NCBI RefSeq assembly: GCF_006345805.1
Contig: NC_042997.1
Span: 39,804,001-39,868,000 of the forward strand
Reading direction: 5' to 3'
DNA from: Octopus sinensis
Taxonomy: Eukaryota
DNA: 64,000 nucleotides
A program made the translations under genes and the position numbers. Of the stretch, positions 42,740 through 57,833 are shown piece after piece. How positions within the stretch are numbered: position 1 is the stretch's first letter; each line of letters starts with the position of its first letter. Below the pieces are notes generated by a model. The model was given only the letters and a program-made list of their open reading frames with translations, was not told the origin of the DNA and made no database searches.

Positions 42740-43200
42740 AATAACAAACTCGACGGAAAGCGGCACATGTCAATTTTTTTTTCTCTCTCTGTCGGCATGC
42801 AGATGTATAAACTTTCACTGCATGTAAGTACATTTCTTCTGTAAATCCGCTCTTCTTCGTAATTATATAACGATATTCGAAAGTAGATACCTCTTTAAGA
42901 AAGCAAAACATATGTGGAAGGCAAAAATGATCATTTAGATGTCACCTTGCAGTCGACTTTGTTTACGTTGTCAGTAATTGTTCTATAATTTCGCGCACCT
43001 GCCAATCGGCCGCATTTAAACCATTTTTGTATTTAACGAATTATAATATTCAGCTTTAATTTTTGAATAATCTTCCGATTTATACGAAAATAAAGAAGCA
43101 AGGAAACGAACGGGGGAATATATGTCTTGACCTTATCCAGTTCTCCTTCCGACTTAATTTATAAATTAATTTGTTTTAGCGCTTCGGGTTGGTTCGTTAA
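42740..43200 (+). promoter_or_regulatory. Probable COQ8 promoter / 5' UTR region
   Basis: Unique, locally CpG-enriched sequence directly upstream of the CDS. CCAAT at ~43002, candidate donor GTAAGT at 42824 and acceptor TTGTTTTAG ending at 43179. Confidence 0.45.
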
Positions 43201-43210
43201 ATCTCTCATT

Positions 43211-45163
43211 ATGTCTCGCCGTACTAACGAACTTATCGGTTTATTCAAAGGAATCGAAAGTATTAGTAAAGCCTTAATTGAAATAAATTCAGCAGAATTA
43301 AATACGTTCTGGCAAAATTCTAGTCTGAAATCTGCTTCCGAAAATGTTGCAAGTTGTGCTTCTCAAAGAGTTCAGAACTCTGATTTCAGTGGGTCTGATG
43401 CTCGCCAAAGAATATCTGATAGCTTTCAAATATTGTCACAACAGACATTTGGCATTTTTAATGCACTCTTTAACCAGAACGCCTTGAAAAAAGATATTGA
43501 AGTTGAAGAATCCGGGGAAGATGTTCTCTCAGATTTCCCAAATATTTATGATAGTGAAGCAGGAATCGATGACATAGTTATCCAGTCGGAGTTGTTTGCT
43601 CCGAAATCTACTGAAGAGAAGGAACGAATCCCCTCAGACGTAAAGGAAGAGAGAAACGCCAAAGAAGTACCAGCGGTAGAGATGGAAGTTCCTAAGAATT
43701 TATCTGATGAGCAACCTTCACCTGAATATGAGACTGTAACGGCTAAACAGGACCCTGAATTACTTTCACCAAAGTATAATCTGGAAACTAAACAAGAGCT
43801 GTCTAGTATATCAAAGGAAAGACGTGTACCTTCGTCCAGGATTGCAAGGTTAGTTAGTTACAGTGGTCTAGCTGCTGGCCTGGGTATTGGGGCCTTGGCA
43901 GAAGTCACACGACGAACACTAGGAAAGAAAACTCCGGATCAAGTTAGTAAAACAATACTAGGGCCTAGTCCTTTCATGACAGAAGCCAACATTGAACGAG
44001 TAGTAACCACTTTGTGTCGTGTGAGAGGAGCAGCTCTGAAGCTCGGGCAAATGATGAGCATACAAGACAATACTTTAATTAGTCCTGAACTCCAAAAAAT
44101 ATTTGAACGAGTTCGTATGAGTGCAGATTTCATGCCAAAATGGCAGATGATGAAGATATTAAATTCTGAACTTGGTTCAGATTGGCAAAACAAAGTGTTG
44201 TCTTTTGATGAGAAACCTTTTGCAGCAGCATCAATTGGCCAAGTTCATCAAGTTACACTTCTTGATGGAAAGATGGCAGCAATGAAAATTCAGTATCCTG
44301 GCGTTGCAGAGAGTATCGACAGTGATATAAATAACTTGATGGGAGTATTAAAAATATGGAACTTCATTCCCAAAGGTGCTTATCTTGATAACATGATAGT
44401 CGTTGCTAAAAAGGAGTTAACATGGGAAGTGGATTATGCCAGAGAAGCTGAATGTGGACAAAGGTTTTATGAACTTCTGAAAGACGATCCTGTTTTTGTA
44501 ATTCCAGAAGTATACAAAGAATTAAGTACATCACGAGTTTTAACCACAGGCTATATTGAAGGTGTTGCAATTGATAAATGCATTGAGATTGATCAAGAAA
44601 CAAGGAACTGGATTGGTAAACATTTACTCAGGCTAACTCTTAACGAATTATTTAATTTTAGATTTATGCAAACTGATCCTAATTGGGCAAACTTCTTTTT
44701 TATTCCTGAAACAAAACGAATTGGTTTGTTGGATTTTGGTGCTAGTCGCGAATTTAGTAAATCTTTTGTTGATAGATACATGAAAGTTATAAAATCTGCT
44801 GCTGACCAGAACCGTGATGGTATTCTCAGTGGTTCTCTTGAACTTGGATTTTTAACTGGATACGAAACCAAAGTAATGGAAGAAGCTCATATTGATGCTG
44901 TAATGATTTTGGGGGAAGCTTTCTCGTTTGACGGAGAATTTAATTTTGGTACCCAGAAAACTGCAAAACGCATTCAAAACCTTGTTCCTGTCATGATAGA
45001 ACACAGATTAACGCCACCTCCAGAGGAATCTTATTCTCTTCACAGAAAAATGTCCGGTGCTTTTCTTTTGTGCACAAAATTAAAAAGTAAAGTAAACTGC
45101 AAGGAACTTTTTGAGGATGTATGGAACAATTTCCAACTTGAAAACACAAACGTGAACCAATGA
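43211..45163 (+). CDS. COQ8: Atypical kinase COQ8A/B (ADCK3/ADCK4, UbiB/ABC1 family), mitochondrial; intronless CDS, 650 aa
   Basis: Uninterrupted ORF with ERRVPSSRIARL, KxGQ motif (GAALKLGQMMS), A-rich loop (FAAASIGQVH), MKIQYPGVAESIDSD, MQTDPNWANFF, LLDFGA and LTPPPEESYSLHRKMSG. First ATG (MSRRTNEL) at 43211. Confidence 0.95.
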   Translation: MSRRTNELIGLFKGIESISKALIEINSAELNTFWQNSSLKSASENVASCASQRVQNSDFSGSDARQRISDSFQILSQQTFGIFNALFNQNALKKDIEVEESGEDVLSDFPNIYDSEAGIDDIVIQSELFAPKSTEEKERIPSDVKEERNAKEVPAVEMEVPKNLSDEQPSPEYETVTAKQDPELLSPKYNLETKQELSSISKERRVPSSRIARLVSYSGLAAGLGIGALAEVTRRTLGKKTPDQVSKTILGPSPFMTEANIERVVTTLCRVRGAALKLGQMMSIQDNTLISPELQKIFERVRMSADFMPKWQMMKILNSELGSDWQNKVLSFDEKPFAAASIGQVHQVTLLDGKMAAMKIQYPGVAESIDSDINNLMGVLKIWNFIPKGAYLDNMIVVAKKELTWEVDYAREAECGQRFYELLKDDPVFVIPEVYKELSTSRVLTTGYIEGVAIDKCIEIDQETRNWIGKHLLRLTLNELFNFRFMQTDPNWANFFFIPETKRIGLLDFGASREFSKSFVDRYMKVIKSAADQNRDGILSGSLELGFLTGYETKVMEEAHIDAVMILGEAFSFDGEFNFGTQKTAKRIQNLVPVMIEHRLTPPPEESYSLHRKMSGAFLLCTKLKSKVNCKELFEDVWNNFQLENTNVNQ

Positions 45164-47864: not shown

Positions 47865-48620
47865 CCATATATAACACAACTTTATATAAAAAATGAATTA
47901 TGTTCTGTTGTATTTTAATACATCAGTAATTTTAGCATCATGTGTTAATAAAACAATTTTTATCATATTATCATTGTAATATATTTTTTTTAACATAATG
48001 GTGCAAATGGAGCAGGTGTTTTGAAATTTATTCCATTAAAAGAGATCTCCACAGGGAATTAGATTGCAAAGAGCTTATTTTTTCATTTACAAAGTGTTCT
48101 TTCTCTCTCAGAATCTTTATGCAAGTTGTTGCCGAAAATGTGTACTGGTTATGTCTGTCAGCAAGCCATCTTATATAGTTTGAAATGGAATTAAAATATT
48201 AGAATGTACTTTATTCACTTGGAAGTTCATATTTTGCTTTTATTTTCAAGGGTTAGAATATTAATTATTTATAATTAACATACTCAGTGTTGTCTTTGCC
48301 AGGTTGACTTTTAAGCATTTCATTTCTAGGACCTGCTTCTGTTTGAACATTTCCTCGGATTCTTTGACCATTTTCTTCTGATTCTCTTCTATTCATTCTG
48401 CTAGCCATGTTGTCTTGAATGAACAGAGGAATGTAGAGTAGAGAGAACTCTTGAGTTTTGCCAGGGATAAGGCAACCTCACATATTAAGTTTTAGAGTCA
48501 TGATAAATTTTACCCAGGACACTCTATAAGGTGATTGGTGAACAAAAGGGAAATGACATAAGGTAGGGATCACTCCATAATCTTGCCAGGGACAAAACTA
48601 TCTTAGTTTTGCTAGTGTCA

Positions 48621-50840
48621 TACGAATTGACAGTACCTTGGTAGATAAAGCAATTAAGAGTATGAAGACCGGGAAAGCCACTGGCCCATCAGGAATCACT
48701 GCAGAGATGCTCAAAATATCTGGCAGTGTCAGCTATAGTCTAGTCAACTTTATAGGTAACCAGGTGATACACGAAGGAATTATATCCAATGACTGGTGTA
48801 GCAGCTCCATAGTCAATTGCTACAAATGTAAAAGTGACGCTTTAGATACAAATAATTACAGAGGTATCAAGTTGTTGGATCAGGTAATGAAGCTCATGGA
48901 GAGGGTCATAGCCCAACTAATTTGGGAGAGAGTCAGTTTAGATGAGATGCAGTTTGGGTTTGTGCCAGGGAAAAGCACCACTGATGCTATATTTCTGGTA
49001 AGACAGCTACAGGAGAAATATCTAGCCAAAGATAAACCTCCGTACTTGGCTTTCGTTGACATGGAGAAAGCCTTTGACAGGGTCCCCCGATCCCTTATCT
49101 GGTGGTCAATGAGGAAACAAGGGATAGATGAATGGTTAGTGAGAGCTGTGCAAGCCATGTACAGAGATGCTGTCAGTAAGGTGAAAGTTGGCAACGAGTA
49201 CAGTGAAGAATTCCGGGTAGGGGTCCACCAAGGTTCAGTCCTCAGCCCCCTCCTATTTATCATAGTCCTCCAGGCAATAACAGAGGAATTCAAGACAGGA
49301 TGCCCCTGGGAGCTCCTCTGTGCTGACGACCTTGCTCTAATTGCTGAGTCACTATCAGAACTAGAGGAGAAGTTTCAGGTGTGGAAGCAAGGATTAGAAT
49401 CGAAGTCAACCTAGCTATATTCAAAGTTCTAATAAGTAAGAAGGCAGGCAAACCACAAATCCCTTCAGGTAGATAGCCCTGCTTGATCTGTAGAAAAGGT
49501 GTCAGTAGAAACTCCATAAGATGTACCCAGTGTAAGCTATGGACACATATGAGGTGCAGCAATATCAAAGGGAGGCTAACTGGGAAGATAGTTTTTGTAT
49601 GTGGCAAATGCTCAGATGCTATAAACACAGAAAATATGCAGAGAACAGCTTGTCACTTTCCAGGGGGAAAAAACTAGAAGTAGTCGATAGCTTCCATTAT
49701 CTAGGTGACCAAGTCAGTAGCGGGGGTAGCTGCTCTGAAAGTGTAGCTGCTAGAATAAGAATAGCCTGGGCAAAGTTCAGAGAGCTCTTACCTCTGCTGG
49801 TGACAAAGGGCCTCTTGCTCAGAGTAAAAGGTAGACTGTATGATGCATGTGTACAAATAGCCATGCTACATGGCAGTGAAACATGGGTTGTGACTGCTGA
49901 GGACATGTGTAAGCTCGCAAGGAATGACGCCAGTATACTTCGCTGGGTGTGTAATGTCAGTGTGCATACTCGACAGTGTAAGTACCTTGAGAGAAAAGTT
50001 TGACCTAAGAAGCATCAGATGTGGTGTGCAAGAGAGATGACTGCACTGGTATGGTCATGTAGCAAGAATGGATGAGGATAGCTGTGTGAAAAATATCACA
50101 CCCTAGTGGTTGAGGGAACCTGTGGAAGAGGCAGACCTAGGATGAGGTAGTGAATTACGACCTTCGAACATTAGGCCTCACTGAGGTAATGACTAGTGAC
50201 CGAGACCTTTGGAAATATGGTGTGTGTGAGAAGACCCGGCAAGCCAAGTGAGACCATAACCCGTGGCCTATGCCAGGGGTGTAACCAGTCCACTTATGTG
50301 TACCTTTCCTTCATTGGACACTAAACTCTGCTTGCGAAGACCTGTTGAGGTAAGTGAAATCGAAATCTAATTTGTTGACTGGTACCATGCTAGTGGAGCA
50401 CTAAGAGCACCATCCGAGTGTGATTGTTGCCCGAACAGCTGACTGGTTTCCGTGCCGGTGGCACGTAAAAAGCACCATTCGAGTGTGATCATTACCAGTG
50501 TCACCTTACTGGCGCTTGTGCTGGTGTCACATGAAAAAAACATTCGAGCGAGGTCGTTGCCAGTGCTGCTGGATTGGCTCCTGTGTAGGTGGAACGTTAA
50601 AAACACCATTTGAGCATTGCCGTTGCTAGTACTACCTGGCTGGCCCTCATGCCAGTGGCATGTAAAAGCACCCACTACACTCACGGAGTGGTTGGCGTTA
50701 GGAAGGGCATCCAGCTGTAGAAACTCTGCTAGATCAGATTGGAGCCTGGTGCAGCCATTTGGTTTACCAGTCCTCAGTCAAATCGTTCAACCCCTGCTAG
50801 CATGGAAAGCAGACGTTTAACAAATGATGATGATGATGAT
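48621..50840 (+). mobile_element. 5'-truncated, frameshifted RTE LINE (RT, PHD-like finger, 3' UTR, (GAT)n tail)
   Basis: RT motifs KATGPSGI, NYRGIKLL, QFGFVPGKSTTDAIF, FVDMEKAFDRV, GVHQGSVLSPLLF, LCADDL, FHYLGD and MLHGSETW. Stop at ~50251, followed by a modular UTR to (GAT)n. Confidence 0.92.
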
Positions 50841-52815: not shown

Positions 52816-53244
52816 TATATGCACTTTTCCCTGGCTGTATCCTGATTCACACAGACATCATCAACATCTAATGTCCATTTTCCATGCTGGCATGGGTTGG
52901 ATGACTTGACAGGATCTGGTAAGGGCTACATTATGTTTAGTGTTTAGATACGTATATTTCTATATTTATTTGTTAATCTATTATATGTTTAAATACTTAA
53001 ATTTATTTTATCATAATTTTAGACCTGAAGAGTGGCTATATTTTTAAATCGAATTAATTTTAGATCGATTTGATTTTAATAGTATTGATTTTATTATTAT
53101 CGATTTAAAGATATAATCATGAAAGGCACATGGTGAATTTAATGTTTATTTAATTTAGTGTTTTTTTAAATAATATTTATTATAGTATATTTAAATTTTT
53201 TCTATATGATGACTTGCTAATTAGAGGTTATTTCTCTTAATTAT

Positions 53245-53300
<56 letters not shown>

Positions 53301-53304
<4 letters not shown>

Positions 53305-55105
53305 TCATCGTTTAACGTCCGTTCTCCATGCTAGCATGGATTGGACGGTTCGACCGGGGATCTGGGAAGCCAGAAGGCTGCACCAGGCTCCAGTCTTATC
53401 TGGCAATGTTTCTACAGCTGGATGCCCTTCCTAACGCCAACCACTCCGTGAGTGTAGTGGGTGCTTTTTACGTGCCACCTGCACAGGTGCCAGGCGAGGC
53501 TGGCAATGGCCACGGTAGGATTGGTGTATTTAGTTTTGTAAGACAAAATTTTATCGAATAGGTAGGAATTTTTATTTGTTATGTAATATTGCATTTAAGT
53601 AAATACTTTTAATAATAATTGAAACTTTGGTTAATTCTATAAATGAGTATAATATTAAATCTATATATAAATTGAATTAATTATATAATCAGTTTAACTA
53701 ATTTGTGTGTATATATTAGAACCATTTTTCTATTTTCAATTCTTGTAGTTATAACTTTTAGTAGTATTATGTATATAAGTTAGCATGAAGTTTTTTAGTA
53801 TATATTACTTAATTAGAATAAGATTTAACTTAGGTGTTTATTAAGTAAATAAATAATTTAATGTATATAGATTAAATTATATATATACACACACATGCAT
53901 TATTTACTATTTATTATTTAATTGAACACCATGCATCCATTTCCAAGTATCTATCTATATATATATATAAATCATACATATATATAGTATATATATAATA
54001 TAATATATATATATATATATCTTATTATAAAAGGCAGATTTTATCTGCCTCCCTTTGGGAGTTATACAAATCTACAATATAGGATTTCTTCAATTACAAT
54101 TTACCTAGCATTTTTAAGAGTACAATGCATCGCGTCATGCCAGCTCCAGTTTTTAAAATTTAAACTCCAATTAAGCAAAATTTACAGAAAACTCACATTC
54201 TGGTGTGTGTGTCAAATGCTTTTCTTAGTCTGGTTTACACCACACGCAAACGCACACACACAGTGGGCAATGAATAAAATGAAAGTAATTCGCTTACTGT
54301 AGTGAGTGATTCTTTCACTCTGCCTCCCACTTCCTCTTTCCACACATAGACATGCAAATATATAAATAAAATTGTAAGCTAACGTGCGTGTGTGTGAGTG
54401 TGTGTGTGTGTGCGCGTGTGTGTGTGTGTGAGGGTGCGTGTGTGTGTGTGTGTGTGCGTGTGCGTGAGTGTGTGACAGGAAAGTTTTTACGACGAATATA
54501 ACACCTATATCCAAGTAGCAGAAAGATAAGACAGTAAGGTGTGATTTGAGGGAGATTTGGCTGCTATTTCTACCATGTCTAGCTGCCATGTAGGGGTCTC
54601 CCTCATAGGCTCATACATACATATATACATAGATAAGACAGTAAGGTGTGATTTGGGGGAAATTTCGCTGCTATTTCTACCAGGTCTAGCTACCATGTAG
54701 AGGTCCCCCTCATTGGCTCATATATATATACATAAGACAGTAAGGTGTGATTTGAGGGAGATTTGGCTGCTGTTTCTACCAGGTCTGTTAGGCCTTCTCA
54801 TGTAAACTCAAGCTTTCTCATGCCTTGAACATAAGACCAAAGCAGAGAATGTATTCTTTTATTCTTCTGCTTTTTCCAGCCATTGGTCTGTGGCCATGCT
54901 GGGGCAATGCCTTGAAGAATTGTAGTTTAATGAATCAACTCCAGTTTTATTTTTGTAAGCATTGTACTTATTCTATCTGTTTCCTTTGTCAAACCACTAG
55001 GTGACAGGGATGTAAACAACCAACATTCGTTGTCAAGCAGTGGTGGAGGACAATCACAAGCACAGACACGCACACACACACACATACATGCATACACATA
55101 TACAC

Positions 55106-55140
<35 letters not shown>

Positions 55141-55836
55141 TATATATTATATATATATATATCATCATCGTTTAACGTCCGTTCTCCATGCTAGCATGGA
55201 TTGGACGGTTCGACCGGGGATCTGGGAAGCCAGAAGGCTGCACCAGGCTCCAGTCTTATCTGGCAATGTTTCTACAGCTGGATGCCCTTCCTAACGCCAA
55301 CCACTCCGTGAGTGTAGTGGGTGCTTTTTACGTGCCACCTGCACAGGTGCCAGGCGAGGCTGGCAATGGCCACGGTAGGATTGGTGTATTTAGTTTTGTA
55401 AGACAAAATTTTATCGAATAGGTAGGAATTTTTATTTGTTATGTAATATTGCATTTAAGTAAATACTTTTAATAATAATTGAAACTTTGGTTAATTCTAT
55501 AAATGAGTATAATATTAAATCTATATATAAATTGAATTAATTATATAATCAGTTTAACTAATTTGTGTGTATATATTAGAACCATTTTTCTATTTTCAAT
55601 TCTTGTAGTTATAACTTTTAGTAGTATTATGTATATAAGTTAGCATGAAGTTTTTTAGTATATATTACTAAATTTAACTTAGGTGTTTATTAAGTAAATA
55701 AATAATTTAATGTATATAGATTAAATTATATATATACACACACATGCATTATTTACTATTTATTATTTAATTGAACACCATGCATCCATTTCCAAGTATC
55801 TATCTATATATATATATAAATCATACATATATATAG

Positions 55837-55874
<38 letters not shown>

Positions 55875-56959
55875 CTTATTATAAAAGGCAGATTTTATCT
55901 GCCTCCCTTTGGGAGTTATACAAATCTACAATATAGGATTTCTTCAATTACAATTTACCTAGCATTTTTAAGAGTACAATGCATCGCGTCATGCCAGCTC
56001 CAGTTTTTAAAATTTAAACTCCAATTAAGCAAAATTTACAGAAAACTCACATTCTGGTGTGTGTGTCAAATGCTTTTCTTAGTCTGGTTTACACCACACG
56101 CAAACGCACACACACAGTGGGCAATGAATAAAATGAAAGTAATTCGCTTACTGTAGTGAGTGATTCTTTCACTCTGCCTCCCACTTCCTCTTTCCACACA
56201 TAGACATGCAAATATATAAATAAAATTGTAAGCTAACGTGCGTGTGTGTGTGAGTGTGTGTGTGTGTGTGCGTGTGTGTGTGTGTGAGGGTGCGTGTGTG
56301 TGTGTGTGTGTGCGTGTGCGTGAGTGTGTGACAGGAAAGTTTTTACGACGAATATAACACCTATATCCAAGTAGCAGAAAGATAAGACAGTAAGGTGTGA
56401 TTTGAGGGAGATTTGGCTGCTATTTCTACCATGTCTAGCTGCCATGTAGGGGTCTCCCTCATAGGCTCATACATACATATATACATAGATAAGACAGTAA
56501 GGTGTGATTTGGGGGAAATTCGCTGCTATTTCTACCAGGTCTAGCTACCATGTAGAGGTCCCCCTCATTGGCTCATATATATACATAAGACAGTAAGGTG
56601 TGATTTGAGGGAGATTTGGCTGCTGTTTCTACCAGGTCTGTTAGGCCTTCTCATGTAAACTCAAGCTTTCTCATGCCTTGAACATAAGACCAAAGCAGAG
56701 AATGTATTCTTTTATTCTTCTGCTTTTTCCAGCCATTGGTCTGTGGCCATGCTGGGGCAATGCCTTGAAGAATTGTAGTTTAATGAATCAACTCCAGTTT
56801 TATTTTTGTAAGCATTGTACTTATTCTATCTGTTTCCTTTGTCAAACCACTAGGTGACAGGGATGTAAACAAACCAACATTCGTTGTCAAGCAGTGGTGG
56901 AGGACAATCACAAGCACAGACACGCACACACACACACATACATGCATACACATATACAC

Positions 56960-57005
<46 letters not shown>

Positions 57006-57010
57006 GTGTA
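53301..57010. repeat. Tandem duplication of a ~1.86 kb unit (53301-55160; 55161-~57010)
   Basis: Near-identical copies of an RTE tail, AT-rich DNA, a Helitron-like 5' end, three ~107-bp repeats and a SINE remnant. Junctions lie in (TACA)n(TA)n. Confidence 0.95.
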
Positions 57011-57018
57011 TATATATA

Positions 57019-57276
57019 TTGCAGCGTGGAAGGTGTTTGTAAGCCATTTAAGAAACACACAAAAACCGTTACATTCACTTCAACATTTAAATTTAATTTG
57101 CCAAAATATTTTCCTCGCTTTGAGACCGCGACCTGTTCACTGACAAAAATATCGTGCTAAAAGGTCGCGGTCTCAAAGCAACGAAAATATTTTGACAAAT
57201 TAGATTTAAATGTTGAAGTGAATCTAACGGTTTTCTGTGTTTCTTAAATGGCTTATAAACACCTTCAACGCTGCAA
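57019..57276. repeat. ~115-bp-arm fold-back (probable Penelope-type inverted pLTR remnant)
   Basis: ttgcagcg...gaccgcgacct / aggtcgcggtc...cgctgcaa. Confidence 0.85.
57097..57147 (-). ncRNA. Minimal type I hammerhead ribozyme-like motif (G3-C8 variant, degenerate)
   Basis: UUUGUCA-GUGAACA-G-GUCGC(ggucucaaa)GCGA[G/C]-GAAA-AUAU-UU-UG[G/A]CAAA gives stems I and II, the core and a palindromic loop 3. Confidence 0.6.
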
Positions 57277-57438
57277 CTGTTTTCGTTCCAGCACACGATC
57301 TCAGATCAAGTCACTTGCTATGCAAGTACATCTCTGTAACTATATATATATTTATATATATATATATATGTATATTGGTAAAAACAGTAAGATAACAAAA
57401 GAAAGAAAGAGACCTCAATATTATGTAAATAGAGGAAA

Positions 57439-57833
57439 TCTTTATATATAAAAGTGAGGTTGTGTGTCTGTCTCCTACGATTTAGATTCCTAACTACTCC
57501 CACATTTTGCGGTGCAGTTTAACCAAAACCGGGTATCTTATAGTCGTGATTCATATCGAGACCGTCTGGGTATTAGCGCGCGTCTACGATGAGTCTACGA
57601 TTTAAAAAAAAATTTACCATCAATTTTTCCCATTTTTAATCCATTTTTGACATATATAAGGGAAGTAACTCTCTAAAATTTATTATTAAATCTCAGAACG
57701 TAAAAAGCTACAGTAACACCCTTCCCCCTTTGTGGTTAGCCATATTGAGATGGCTATTATACTTTACATCTCTAAAAATGCTTATATAATTATTTCCCTT
57801 ACAAACCCGAGCAACGCCGGGCGATACTGCTAG
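57439..57833 (+). mobile_element. Non-autonomous Helitron-like element (best-preserved copy)
   Basis: A|TC ... CCCGAGCAACGCCGGG hairpin ... CTAG|T, with no TSD. Confidence 0.85.

What the first reader, a model, noticed from the sequence alone, without database searches (positions are those of the whole stretch)
57019..57276. Fold-back element encoding a hammerhead ribozyme with a swapped G3-C8 core pair
Seen: a 258-bp inverted repeat. Combining both arms gives UUUGUCA|GUGAACA|G|GUCGC-loop-GCGAC|GAAA|AUAU|UU|UGACAAA. That is a 7-bp stem I, a 5-bp stem II and a palindromic AAUAUU stem/loop III, with core GUGAACA in place of CUGANGA. Known: hammerhead positions 3 and 8 form a Watson-Crick tertiary pair, and Penelope-like elements carry minimal type I hammerheads with palindromic loop 3 that cleave as dimers. 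Inference: this is a PLE pLTR family whose ribozyme uses G3-C8 and a UU cleavage site, which CUGANGA pattern searches would miss. Each arm here has a damaging mutation, so only the consensus should be active.
Basis: partly seen in the sequence, partly recalled or inferred. Interest (0 to 1): 0.78.

Follow-up and report, generated by a model that had tools for sequence, protein, structure and literature searches.

The report
Octopus retroelement hammerhead, swapped core pair
The fold-back is a damaged leftover of an octopus jumping gene (a Penelope-like element) whose thousands of copies carry the layout of a small self-cutting RNA with two paired core letters swapped (G3-C8 for C3-G8), a natural variant that standard searches miss and that likely still cuts, though cutting is untested.

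Summary
The 258-bp fold-back is real and is two head-to-head end repeats (pLTRs) of a Penelope-like element, carried inside a ~2-kb Helitron-like unit. The hammerhead layout lies once, on the minus strand (57147-57097); the right arm lacks half the core. The motif belongs to a family with 5,840 exact core matches, 3,549 with core and stem II intact; in longer copies it lies 1 kb behind an RT + GIY-YIG frame. G3-C8 is the family state (31/31 G3, 30/31 C8) and is kept in an older relative (26/41), while the sister family has C3-G8 and other relatives C3-G8 or U3-A8 in the same layout: a natural compensatory swap. Engineered C3G/G8C is published as partly active; I found no published natural G3-C8, but could not read three key papers. 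This scan noted G3-C8 before in protist elements and phages. Cleavage is not shown: 1 of 97 copies starts at the cut site, 54 start just upstream of the ribozyme at a likely transcription start. The window copy itself has lost C11.1 and would be locked in a long hairpin. The UU site and extra G are ordinary. New variant of a known kind.

The parts
57019..57158 (-). pLTR copy 1 (left arm plus spacer): starts about 7 nt after the likely transcription start, holds the whole hammerhead, ends at the first family 3' end (no tail), then (TA)n
57097..57147 (-). Minimal type I hammerhead layout: 7-bp stem I (one U.G), core, extra G, 5-bp stem II (closing pair broken here by C11.1 to G at 57114), GAAA, palindromic AAUAUU helix III, U17; predicted cut between 57104 and 57103
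57134..57140 (-). Core GUGAACA; G3 at 57140, C8 at 57135
57159..57340 (+). pLTR copy 2 (right arm plus tail): 5'-truncated inside the core (starts at A6), holds the likely start codon of the element's frame at 57248 and ends at the second family 3' end, then (TA)n
57277..57340 (+). Optional ~60-nt tail present on one arm only; 58 of 97 family copies have it
   Evidence: described for PLEs in PMC8557442 and PMC11167929
55874..57833 (+). Non-autonomous Helitron-like carrier unit (5' TC, 3' hairpin and CTAG, between A and T) that has copied the fold-back to many sites
   Evidence: the Helitron end signature is recalled knowledge, no Rep/helicase partner was sought

Best explanation
The fold-back is two head-to-head copies of the end repeat of an octopus Penelope-like element whose minimal hammerhead carries G3-C8 where its sister family carries C3-G8, and the family motif likely still self-cleaves slowly, as a dimer or with help from the element's protein, while this particular copy is predicted to be dead. 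Shown: family link to an RT + GIY-YIG frame, G3-C8 as family state, C3-G8 and U3-A8 in relatives, two fixed 3' ends, frequent inversion, piling-up of 5' ends just upstream of the ribozyme. Inferred: a TATA box at -30 starts a capped transcript; the hammerhead (+16 to +65) lies in the leader before the start codon (+115); reverse transcription starts internally at one of the two 3' end sites and copies uncleaved RNA back to the cap, giving 150-210-nt copies; a template switch gives the inverted second copy; cleavage after +58 would remove the cap and take an RNA out of use, an off-switch and not a step of insertion. One such inverted pair landed in a TA run of a Helitron-like unit, which then spread it.
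For: Motif 1.0 kb behind a 793-aa open frame with RT motifs and C-terminal GIY-YIG (L094; also L096, L097, L101; PF01541 above cut-off on the family's C-terminal piece). G3 in 31/31 and C8 in 30/31 copies picked by an upstream pattern. Older relative picked by a pattern blind at 3 and 8: 26/41 G3-C8, 35/41 G3, with other N7, loop II, helix III (AAUU, also palindromic) and distal stem I. Sister family (55% protein identity, sister at SH-aLRT 97 in a quick tree) has the same layout with C3-G8. Metagenome relatives: C3-G8 in L251, L252, U3-A8 in L253, L254. In 17 hand-picked motifs positions 3 and 8 always pair: CG 6, GC 5, UA 3, UG 3. Engineered C3G/G8C partly restores cleavage, also in a PLE hammerhead (PMC11167929; PMC9901934; PMC8495972). 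5' ends: 54/97 within -6..+8 of the inferred +1, TATATAT at exactly -30, non-templated G before 9 of 13 copies that start at +1. Inverted partner in 57/97, tail in 58/97, as described for PLEs.
Against: No cleavage assay and no raw RNA reads. Only 1 of 97 copies begins at the predicted cut, and that one sits at an ambiguous inversion junction. 37 of the first 100 copies with a changed position 8 have G8, mostly G3.G8 mismatches (counted by eye); they share no diagnostic changes, so they look recurrent, but the excess over A8 (16) is unexplained. In an engineered PLE, hammerhead mutants insert normally and the swap is only a partial rescue. The 17 motifs were chosen by me through patterns, the five G3-C8 rows are two related families, several rows are single decayed copies, and row L254 is out of register in stem II. 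No full-length element (5' pLTR plus start of frame) was found, so the leader arrangement is inferred. The +1 site also reads as a 3' splice site.
Confidence: 0.72

Rival explanations
1. The motif descends from a PLE hammerhead but no longer cuts; G3-C8 arose by two changes under relaxed selection, and the layout is kept for another role (promoter, protein binding, RNA folding near the reverse-transcription start).
For: 1/97 5' ends at the cut site; G3.G8 copies occur; hammerhead mutants insert normally in vitro (PMC11167929); whole PLE clades thrive without canonical hammerheads (PMC8557442); going from C-G to G-C passes through a mismatch.
Against: Both changes are transversions that together restore the pair; all other core letters, G10.1-C11.1 and a palindromic helix III are kept in two families whose loops and downstream DNA have diverged (median identity 0.79 in the motif, which the search pattern partly fixes, and 0.65 downstream against 0.58 for random DNA); relatives use three other pairing states and no mismatch.
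Confidence: 0.2
2. The short units are an independent non-autonomous family (retrozyme- or SINE-like) that makes its own RNA and only borrows the PLE enzyme.
For: Most copies are short and begin right before the ribozyme; retrozymes are proposed to derive from pLTRs (bioRxiv 10.64898/2026.07.22.740005).
Against: Copies that start at +1 lack the upstream TATA box; they are dispersed or inverted, not in long tandem arrays; the same sequence is continuous with the 3' region of the PLE frame.
Confidence: 0.05
3. It is a fold-back DNA transposon (MITE) with long terminal inverted repeats, and the hammerhead likeness is chance.
For: Long inverted repeat in a TA run; high copy number; no Rfam hammerhead match.
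Against: 40 of 97 copies have no inverted partner, junction points vary from copy to copy, one arm carries a tail; the unit is the 3' end of an RT + GIY-YIG element; relatives hold canonical hammerheads in the same place.
Confidence: 0.02

Closest known systems
Minimal type I hammerheads of metazoan Penelope-like elements (PMC4209133)
   Same: Place in the pLTR, type I topology, extra nucleotide between 9 and 10.1, G10.1-C11.1, short palindromic helix III, U17 frequent, opposite-strand pairs and solo copies.
   Different: G3-C8; none of the 56 listed representatives has it (C3-G8, a few U3-A8 or U3-G8). Position 9b is G, outside their H consensus (one listed example has G).
Natural U3-A8 hammerheads (PMC3088659; Schistosoma Cercyon family in PMC4209133)
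   Same: Natural covariation of the 3-8 core pair.
   Different: U3-A8 keeps pyrimidine at 3 and purine at 8 (two transitions); G3-C8 inverts them (two transversions).
Engineered C3G/G8C double mutants (PMC11167929, PMC9901934, PMC8495972)
   Same: Same core; partly active, also in the Anolis PLE hammerhead with its protein.
   Different: Those are laboratory mutants; this is the fixed state of a family with thousands of copies.
Nematis-type EN+ Penelope-like elements (PMC8557442, Fig. S2 text)
   Same: C-terminal GIY-YIG, short Cys linker with few residues between CxxC and the next Cys, CCHH-type residues, inverted 5'-truncated copies, optional tail.
   Different: Placed by eye only; no tree with named clade references was run.

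Membership tests
Hammerhead ribozyme, minimal type I | Core U4-G5-A6, A9, G12-A13-A14, A15.1-U16.1, H17 | tested here: met
   Present in the window copy and in 30-31 of 31 family copies at each position
Hammerhead ribozyme, minimal type I | C3 and G8 identity (CUGANGA) | tested here: not met
   G3 and C8 instead; no Rfam hammerhead match at E up to 10 around the finding
Hammerhead ribozyme, minimal type I | Watson-Crick pair between positions 3 and 8 | tested here: met
   G-C here; 17 of 17 chosen motifs pair, four pair types
Hammerhead ribozyme, minimal type I | Stems I and II with G10.1-C11.1, supported by covariation | tested here: met
   Family: 7 bp and 5 bp; four of five stem II pairs change on both sides across families. 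The window copy fails at C11.1
Hammerhead ribozyme, minimal type I | Palindromic short helix III allowing a dimer | tested here: met
   AAUAUU in the family, AAUU in the older relative; the two-strand fold did not pick the helix III dimer as lowest energy
Hammerhead ribozyme, minimal type I | Self-cleavage after position 17 | not testable with these tools
   No assay, no raw RNA reads; genomic 5' ends show no pile-up at the cut (1/97)
EN+ Penelope-like element | One frame with RT and C-terminal GIY-YIG | tested here: met
   793-aa and 722-aa open frames; PF01541 on the C-terminal piece; whole P0002 has no Pfam hit, the sister P0003 a weak RVT_1 hit; homologues named RT-domain proteins
EN+ Penelope-like element | pLTR with hammerhead, inverted 5'-truncated copies, optional tail | tested here: met
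EN+ Penelope-like element | Full-length tandem with 5' pLTR in front of the frame | tested here: inconclusive
   No held copy continues from the tail into shared coding sequence; no dedicated search
Nematis clade | Placement by RT phylogeny with named references | not tested
   Only a by-eye match of the short linker
Helitron (carrier unit) | 5' TC, 3' hairpin and CTAG, insertion between A and T | tested here: met
   Exact 5' end in 22 of 30 and 3' end in 25 of 30 loci; signature recalled
Helitron (carrier unit) | Autonomous Rep/helicase partner | not tested
   not sought

The most novel reading that the evidence does not exclude
G3-C8 is a working third state of the hammerhead core pair, fixed in an animal retroelement lineage with thousands of copies; the lineage crossed a non-cleaving intermediate and was selected back to a paired core. 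CUGANGA-based surveys therefore miss whole families, including some elements called hammerhead-free. The pile-up of capped, uncleaved 5' ends says the ribozyme is an off-switch in the leader rather than a processing step of transposition.
Probability: 0.5. Interest if true: 0.66.

Novelty: new variant of a known kind. Interest (0 to 1): 0.52.

Why it matters
The 3-8 pair was inferred from structure and engineered swaps; natural covariation was published only as U3-A8 in the papers I could read. Here sister retroelement families in one genome differ by a C-G to G-C inversion, a natural experiment that argues for selection on catalysis in PLE hammerheads, whose role is still open. It gives a ready test pair (G3-C8 family, C3-G8 sister) and a reason to relax search patterns. 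The locus in the window is itself an ordinary dead copy.

Tried and rejected
Rfam around the finding: only microRNA-type hairpin matches below cut-off, no hammerhead; a second scan of five loci listed 150 of 190 matches, none a hammerhead, 40 unseen. L069/L105 first looked like the parent element, but its RT frame is cut off and joined to the family 3' region at a point where other copies continue with a different frame: rejected as parent. Conservation among the 30 best copies (98%) reflects the Helitron-like carrier and says nothing about the ribozyme. A canonical C3-G8 subfamily within the family: 0 among 3 pattern hits and 1 among the first 100 position-8 variants (L232): rejected as stray change. 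G3.G8 copies as one clade: no shared changes. Of 11 metagenome loci 4 showed a hammerhead; the others end too early or showed none. One search had stem II off by one column (my slip), corrected. The careful tree did not finish; the quick one is cited. Solved-structure search: one weak RT match. Papers not held: PMC5785218, PMC1986816, PMC4447102.

Full report
Observation. The inverted repeat is real: arms 57019-57137 and 57159-57276, about 92% complementary, with a 21-nt spacer. The hammerhead layout reads once, on the minus strand, from the spacer into the left arm (57147-57097): 7-bp stem I, GUGAACA, an extra G, 5-bp stem II, GAAA, AUAU, UU, stem I 3'. The right arm begins at A6 and lacks the 5' half. 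The left arm has lost C11.1, and a transcript through the locus is predicted to fold as one long hairpin (-176 and -189 kcal/mol for the two strands) that buries the motif. This copy is therefore unlikely to act.

Setting. The genome is 2.72 Gb; a protein labelled Octopus vulgaris matches it at up to 98%, so I call it an octopus. The 30 best matches to the fold-back share about 2 kb of flanks, ending in TC at 55874 and a hairpin plus CTAG at 57833 (exact ends in 22 and 25 of 30 loci). These are Helitron ends (recalled). Only 3 of the first 30 exact-core hits have this junction, so most family copies are independent insertions. No PLE frame lies in the window.

The family. An 18-letter core pattern has 5,840 matches, a pattern demanding core, stem II and helix III 3,549, a 3' pattern that excludes the carrier 4,988; reversed controls 0. 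[quoted passage not shown] Of 97 copies picked by the 3' pattern, 57 have an inverted partner and 58 carry a ~60-nt tail. Those 97 come from the first 100 listed places on one contig; three places already held as L072-L074 were not scored and run far upstream; both arms of some fold-backs and two near-duplicate pairs are counted. Inverted 5'-truncated copies and an optional tail are the described PLE pattern (PMC8557442 passages; PMC3846280 passages), and the tail is explained by two internal starts of reverse transcription (PMC11167929, passages and second part of the main section). The short linker resembles Nematis by eye (supplement text); not tested by tree.

Is G3-C8 a real swap? Within the family G3 is in 31 of 31 and C8 in 30 of 31 copies picked without the core. 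Flanks are as conserved, as expected for neutral copies, so the test must be across families. (a) An older, decayed relative: a pattern blind at 3 and 8 gave 41 hits, 26 G3-C8, 35 with G3 (counted by eye); it differs in N7, loop II, helix III (AAUU) and distal stem I. (b) The sister family (55% identity; sister at SH-aLRT 97 in a quick tree of 24 rows) has the same layout about 480 nt behind its frame, with C3-G8, C9, extra G and U17. (c) Of 11 metagenome relatives, two have C3-G8 and two U3-A8. In 17 motifs that I chose, positions 3 and 8 always pair (CG 6, GC 5, UA 3, UG 3) and four of five stem II pairs change on both sides. These rows were picked by pattern and by eye, are related, and include single decayed copies, so the shuffle figures are not probabilities. 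With C3-G8 in the sister and outgroups, G3-C8 is the derived state.

How it likely works. 54 of 97 copies begin within -6 to +8 of one A, 22 nt before G3; 6 run further upstream, 28 start between there and the cut, 8 behind it and 1 at the cut. TATATAT begins exactly 30 nt before that A, as with the TATA and initiator noted in rotifer pLTRs. Nine of 13 copies starting at that A have a non-templated G in front (p 7e-5 against 0.18; some are inversion junctions where the G may come from the other arm). I infer a capped transcription start, a hammerhead in the leader (+16 to +65), a start codon at +115, and copying of uncleaved RNA from the two 3' end sites (+145, +206). The same site also reads as branch point plus 3' splice site, as the intron end in Drosophila Penelope abuts helix I; contigs did not decide this. 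Cleavage would decap the RNA; this fits an off-switch and the report that unprocessed RNA is the insertion substrate. It does not show that the motif cuts.

Against. No cleavage data; no RNA holder listed. 37 of the first 100 copies altered at position 8 have G8 against 16 with A8 (by eye); they form no clade, and the excess is unexplained. No full-length element was found.

What is known. PLE minimal hammerheads with an extra nucleotide, palindromic helix III and weak dimer activity are described in PMC4209133 (main text parts 1-2 of 4, supplement parts 1-2 of 3); none of its 56 representatives has G3-C8 and U17 is common. Natural U3-A8 is in that paper and PMC3088659 (section 8 and passages). 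Engineered C3G/G8C partly restores activity (PMC11167929; PMC9901934 passages; PMC8495972 passage; PMC3884650 passage). Searches for a natural G3-C8 or an octopus case found none. Figures cannot be read, and PMC5785218, PMC1986816 and PMC4447102 were not held, so a prior report is not excluded. PMC6765202, PMC6155905 and PMC6962438 (passages) and one preprint (part 1 of 5) added nothing on this point. Earlier notes of this scan report G3-C8 motifs in protist PLEs and phages (unchecked, not tested here); none matched this sequence.

Verdict. A natural G3-C8 minimal hammerhead in a large animal PLE family: homology and swap about 0.9, cleavage about 0.6. New variant of a known kind, interest 0.52. 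The window locus is a dead passenger copy.

Noticed in passing
family copies L292-L379; L094 6565-6600: 5' ends pile up at one A with TATATAT exactly 30 nt upstream and often a non-templated G in front: likely transcription start and copied cap; the site also looks like a 3' splice site.
   Followed up: partly
window 55874-57833: Helitron-like composite unit with captured pieces (a 100-nt tandem repeat at 56380-56690, a SINE-like piece near 56700-56900, the PLE fold-back); further TC-type 5' ends near 57439 and 57869.
   Followed up: partly
window 53246-55161 and 55105-57016: Near-perfect tandem duplication (98.5% over 1.9 kb); the first copy stops just before the fold-back. Could be real or an assembly artefact.
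   Followed up: no
window 43094-45160 (+): Uninterrupted 689-aa frame with an ABC1 atypical kinase domain: intronless gene or retrocopy.
   Followed up: no
window 48581-49411 (+): Fragment of a LINE-type reverse transcriptase (RVT_1).
   Followed up: no
L030:3159 (+), L078, L130: Another octopus repeat with a hammerhead layout and U3-A8 core, 6-bp stem I and 4-bp stem II.
   Followed up: no
L251:4965-5017 (+): Hammerhead layout behind a related PLE frame with U15.1-A16.1 in place of A-U and a palindromic helix III.
   Followed up: no
sister family L106-L165: Its hammerhead has C9 instead of A9 and mostly an A-C mismatch in stem I, yet the family is young and abundant.
   Followed up: partly
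family copies listed: C8 changes to G more than twice as often as to A; unexplained.
   Followed up: partly
window 53021-53130 (+): CUGAAGA and a distant GAAA flanking an AT-rich stretch: possible long-stem hammerhead of another PLE family.
   Followed up: no
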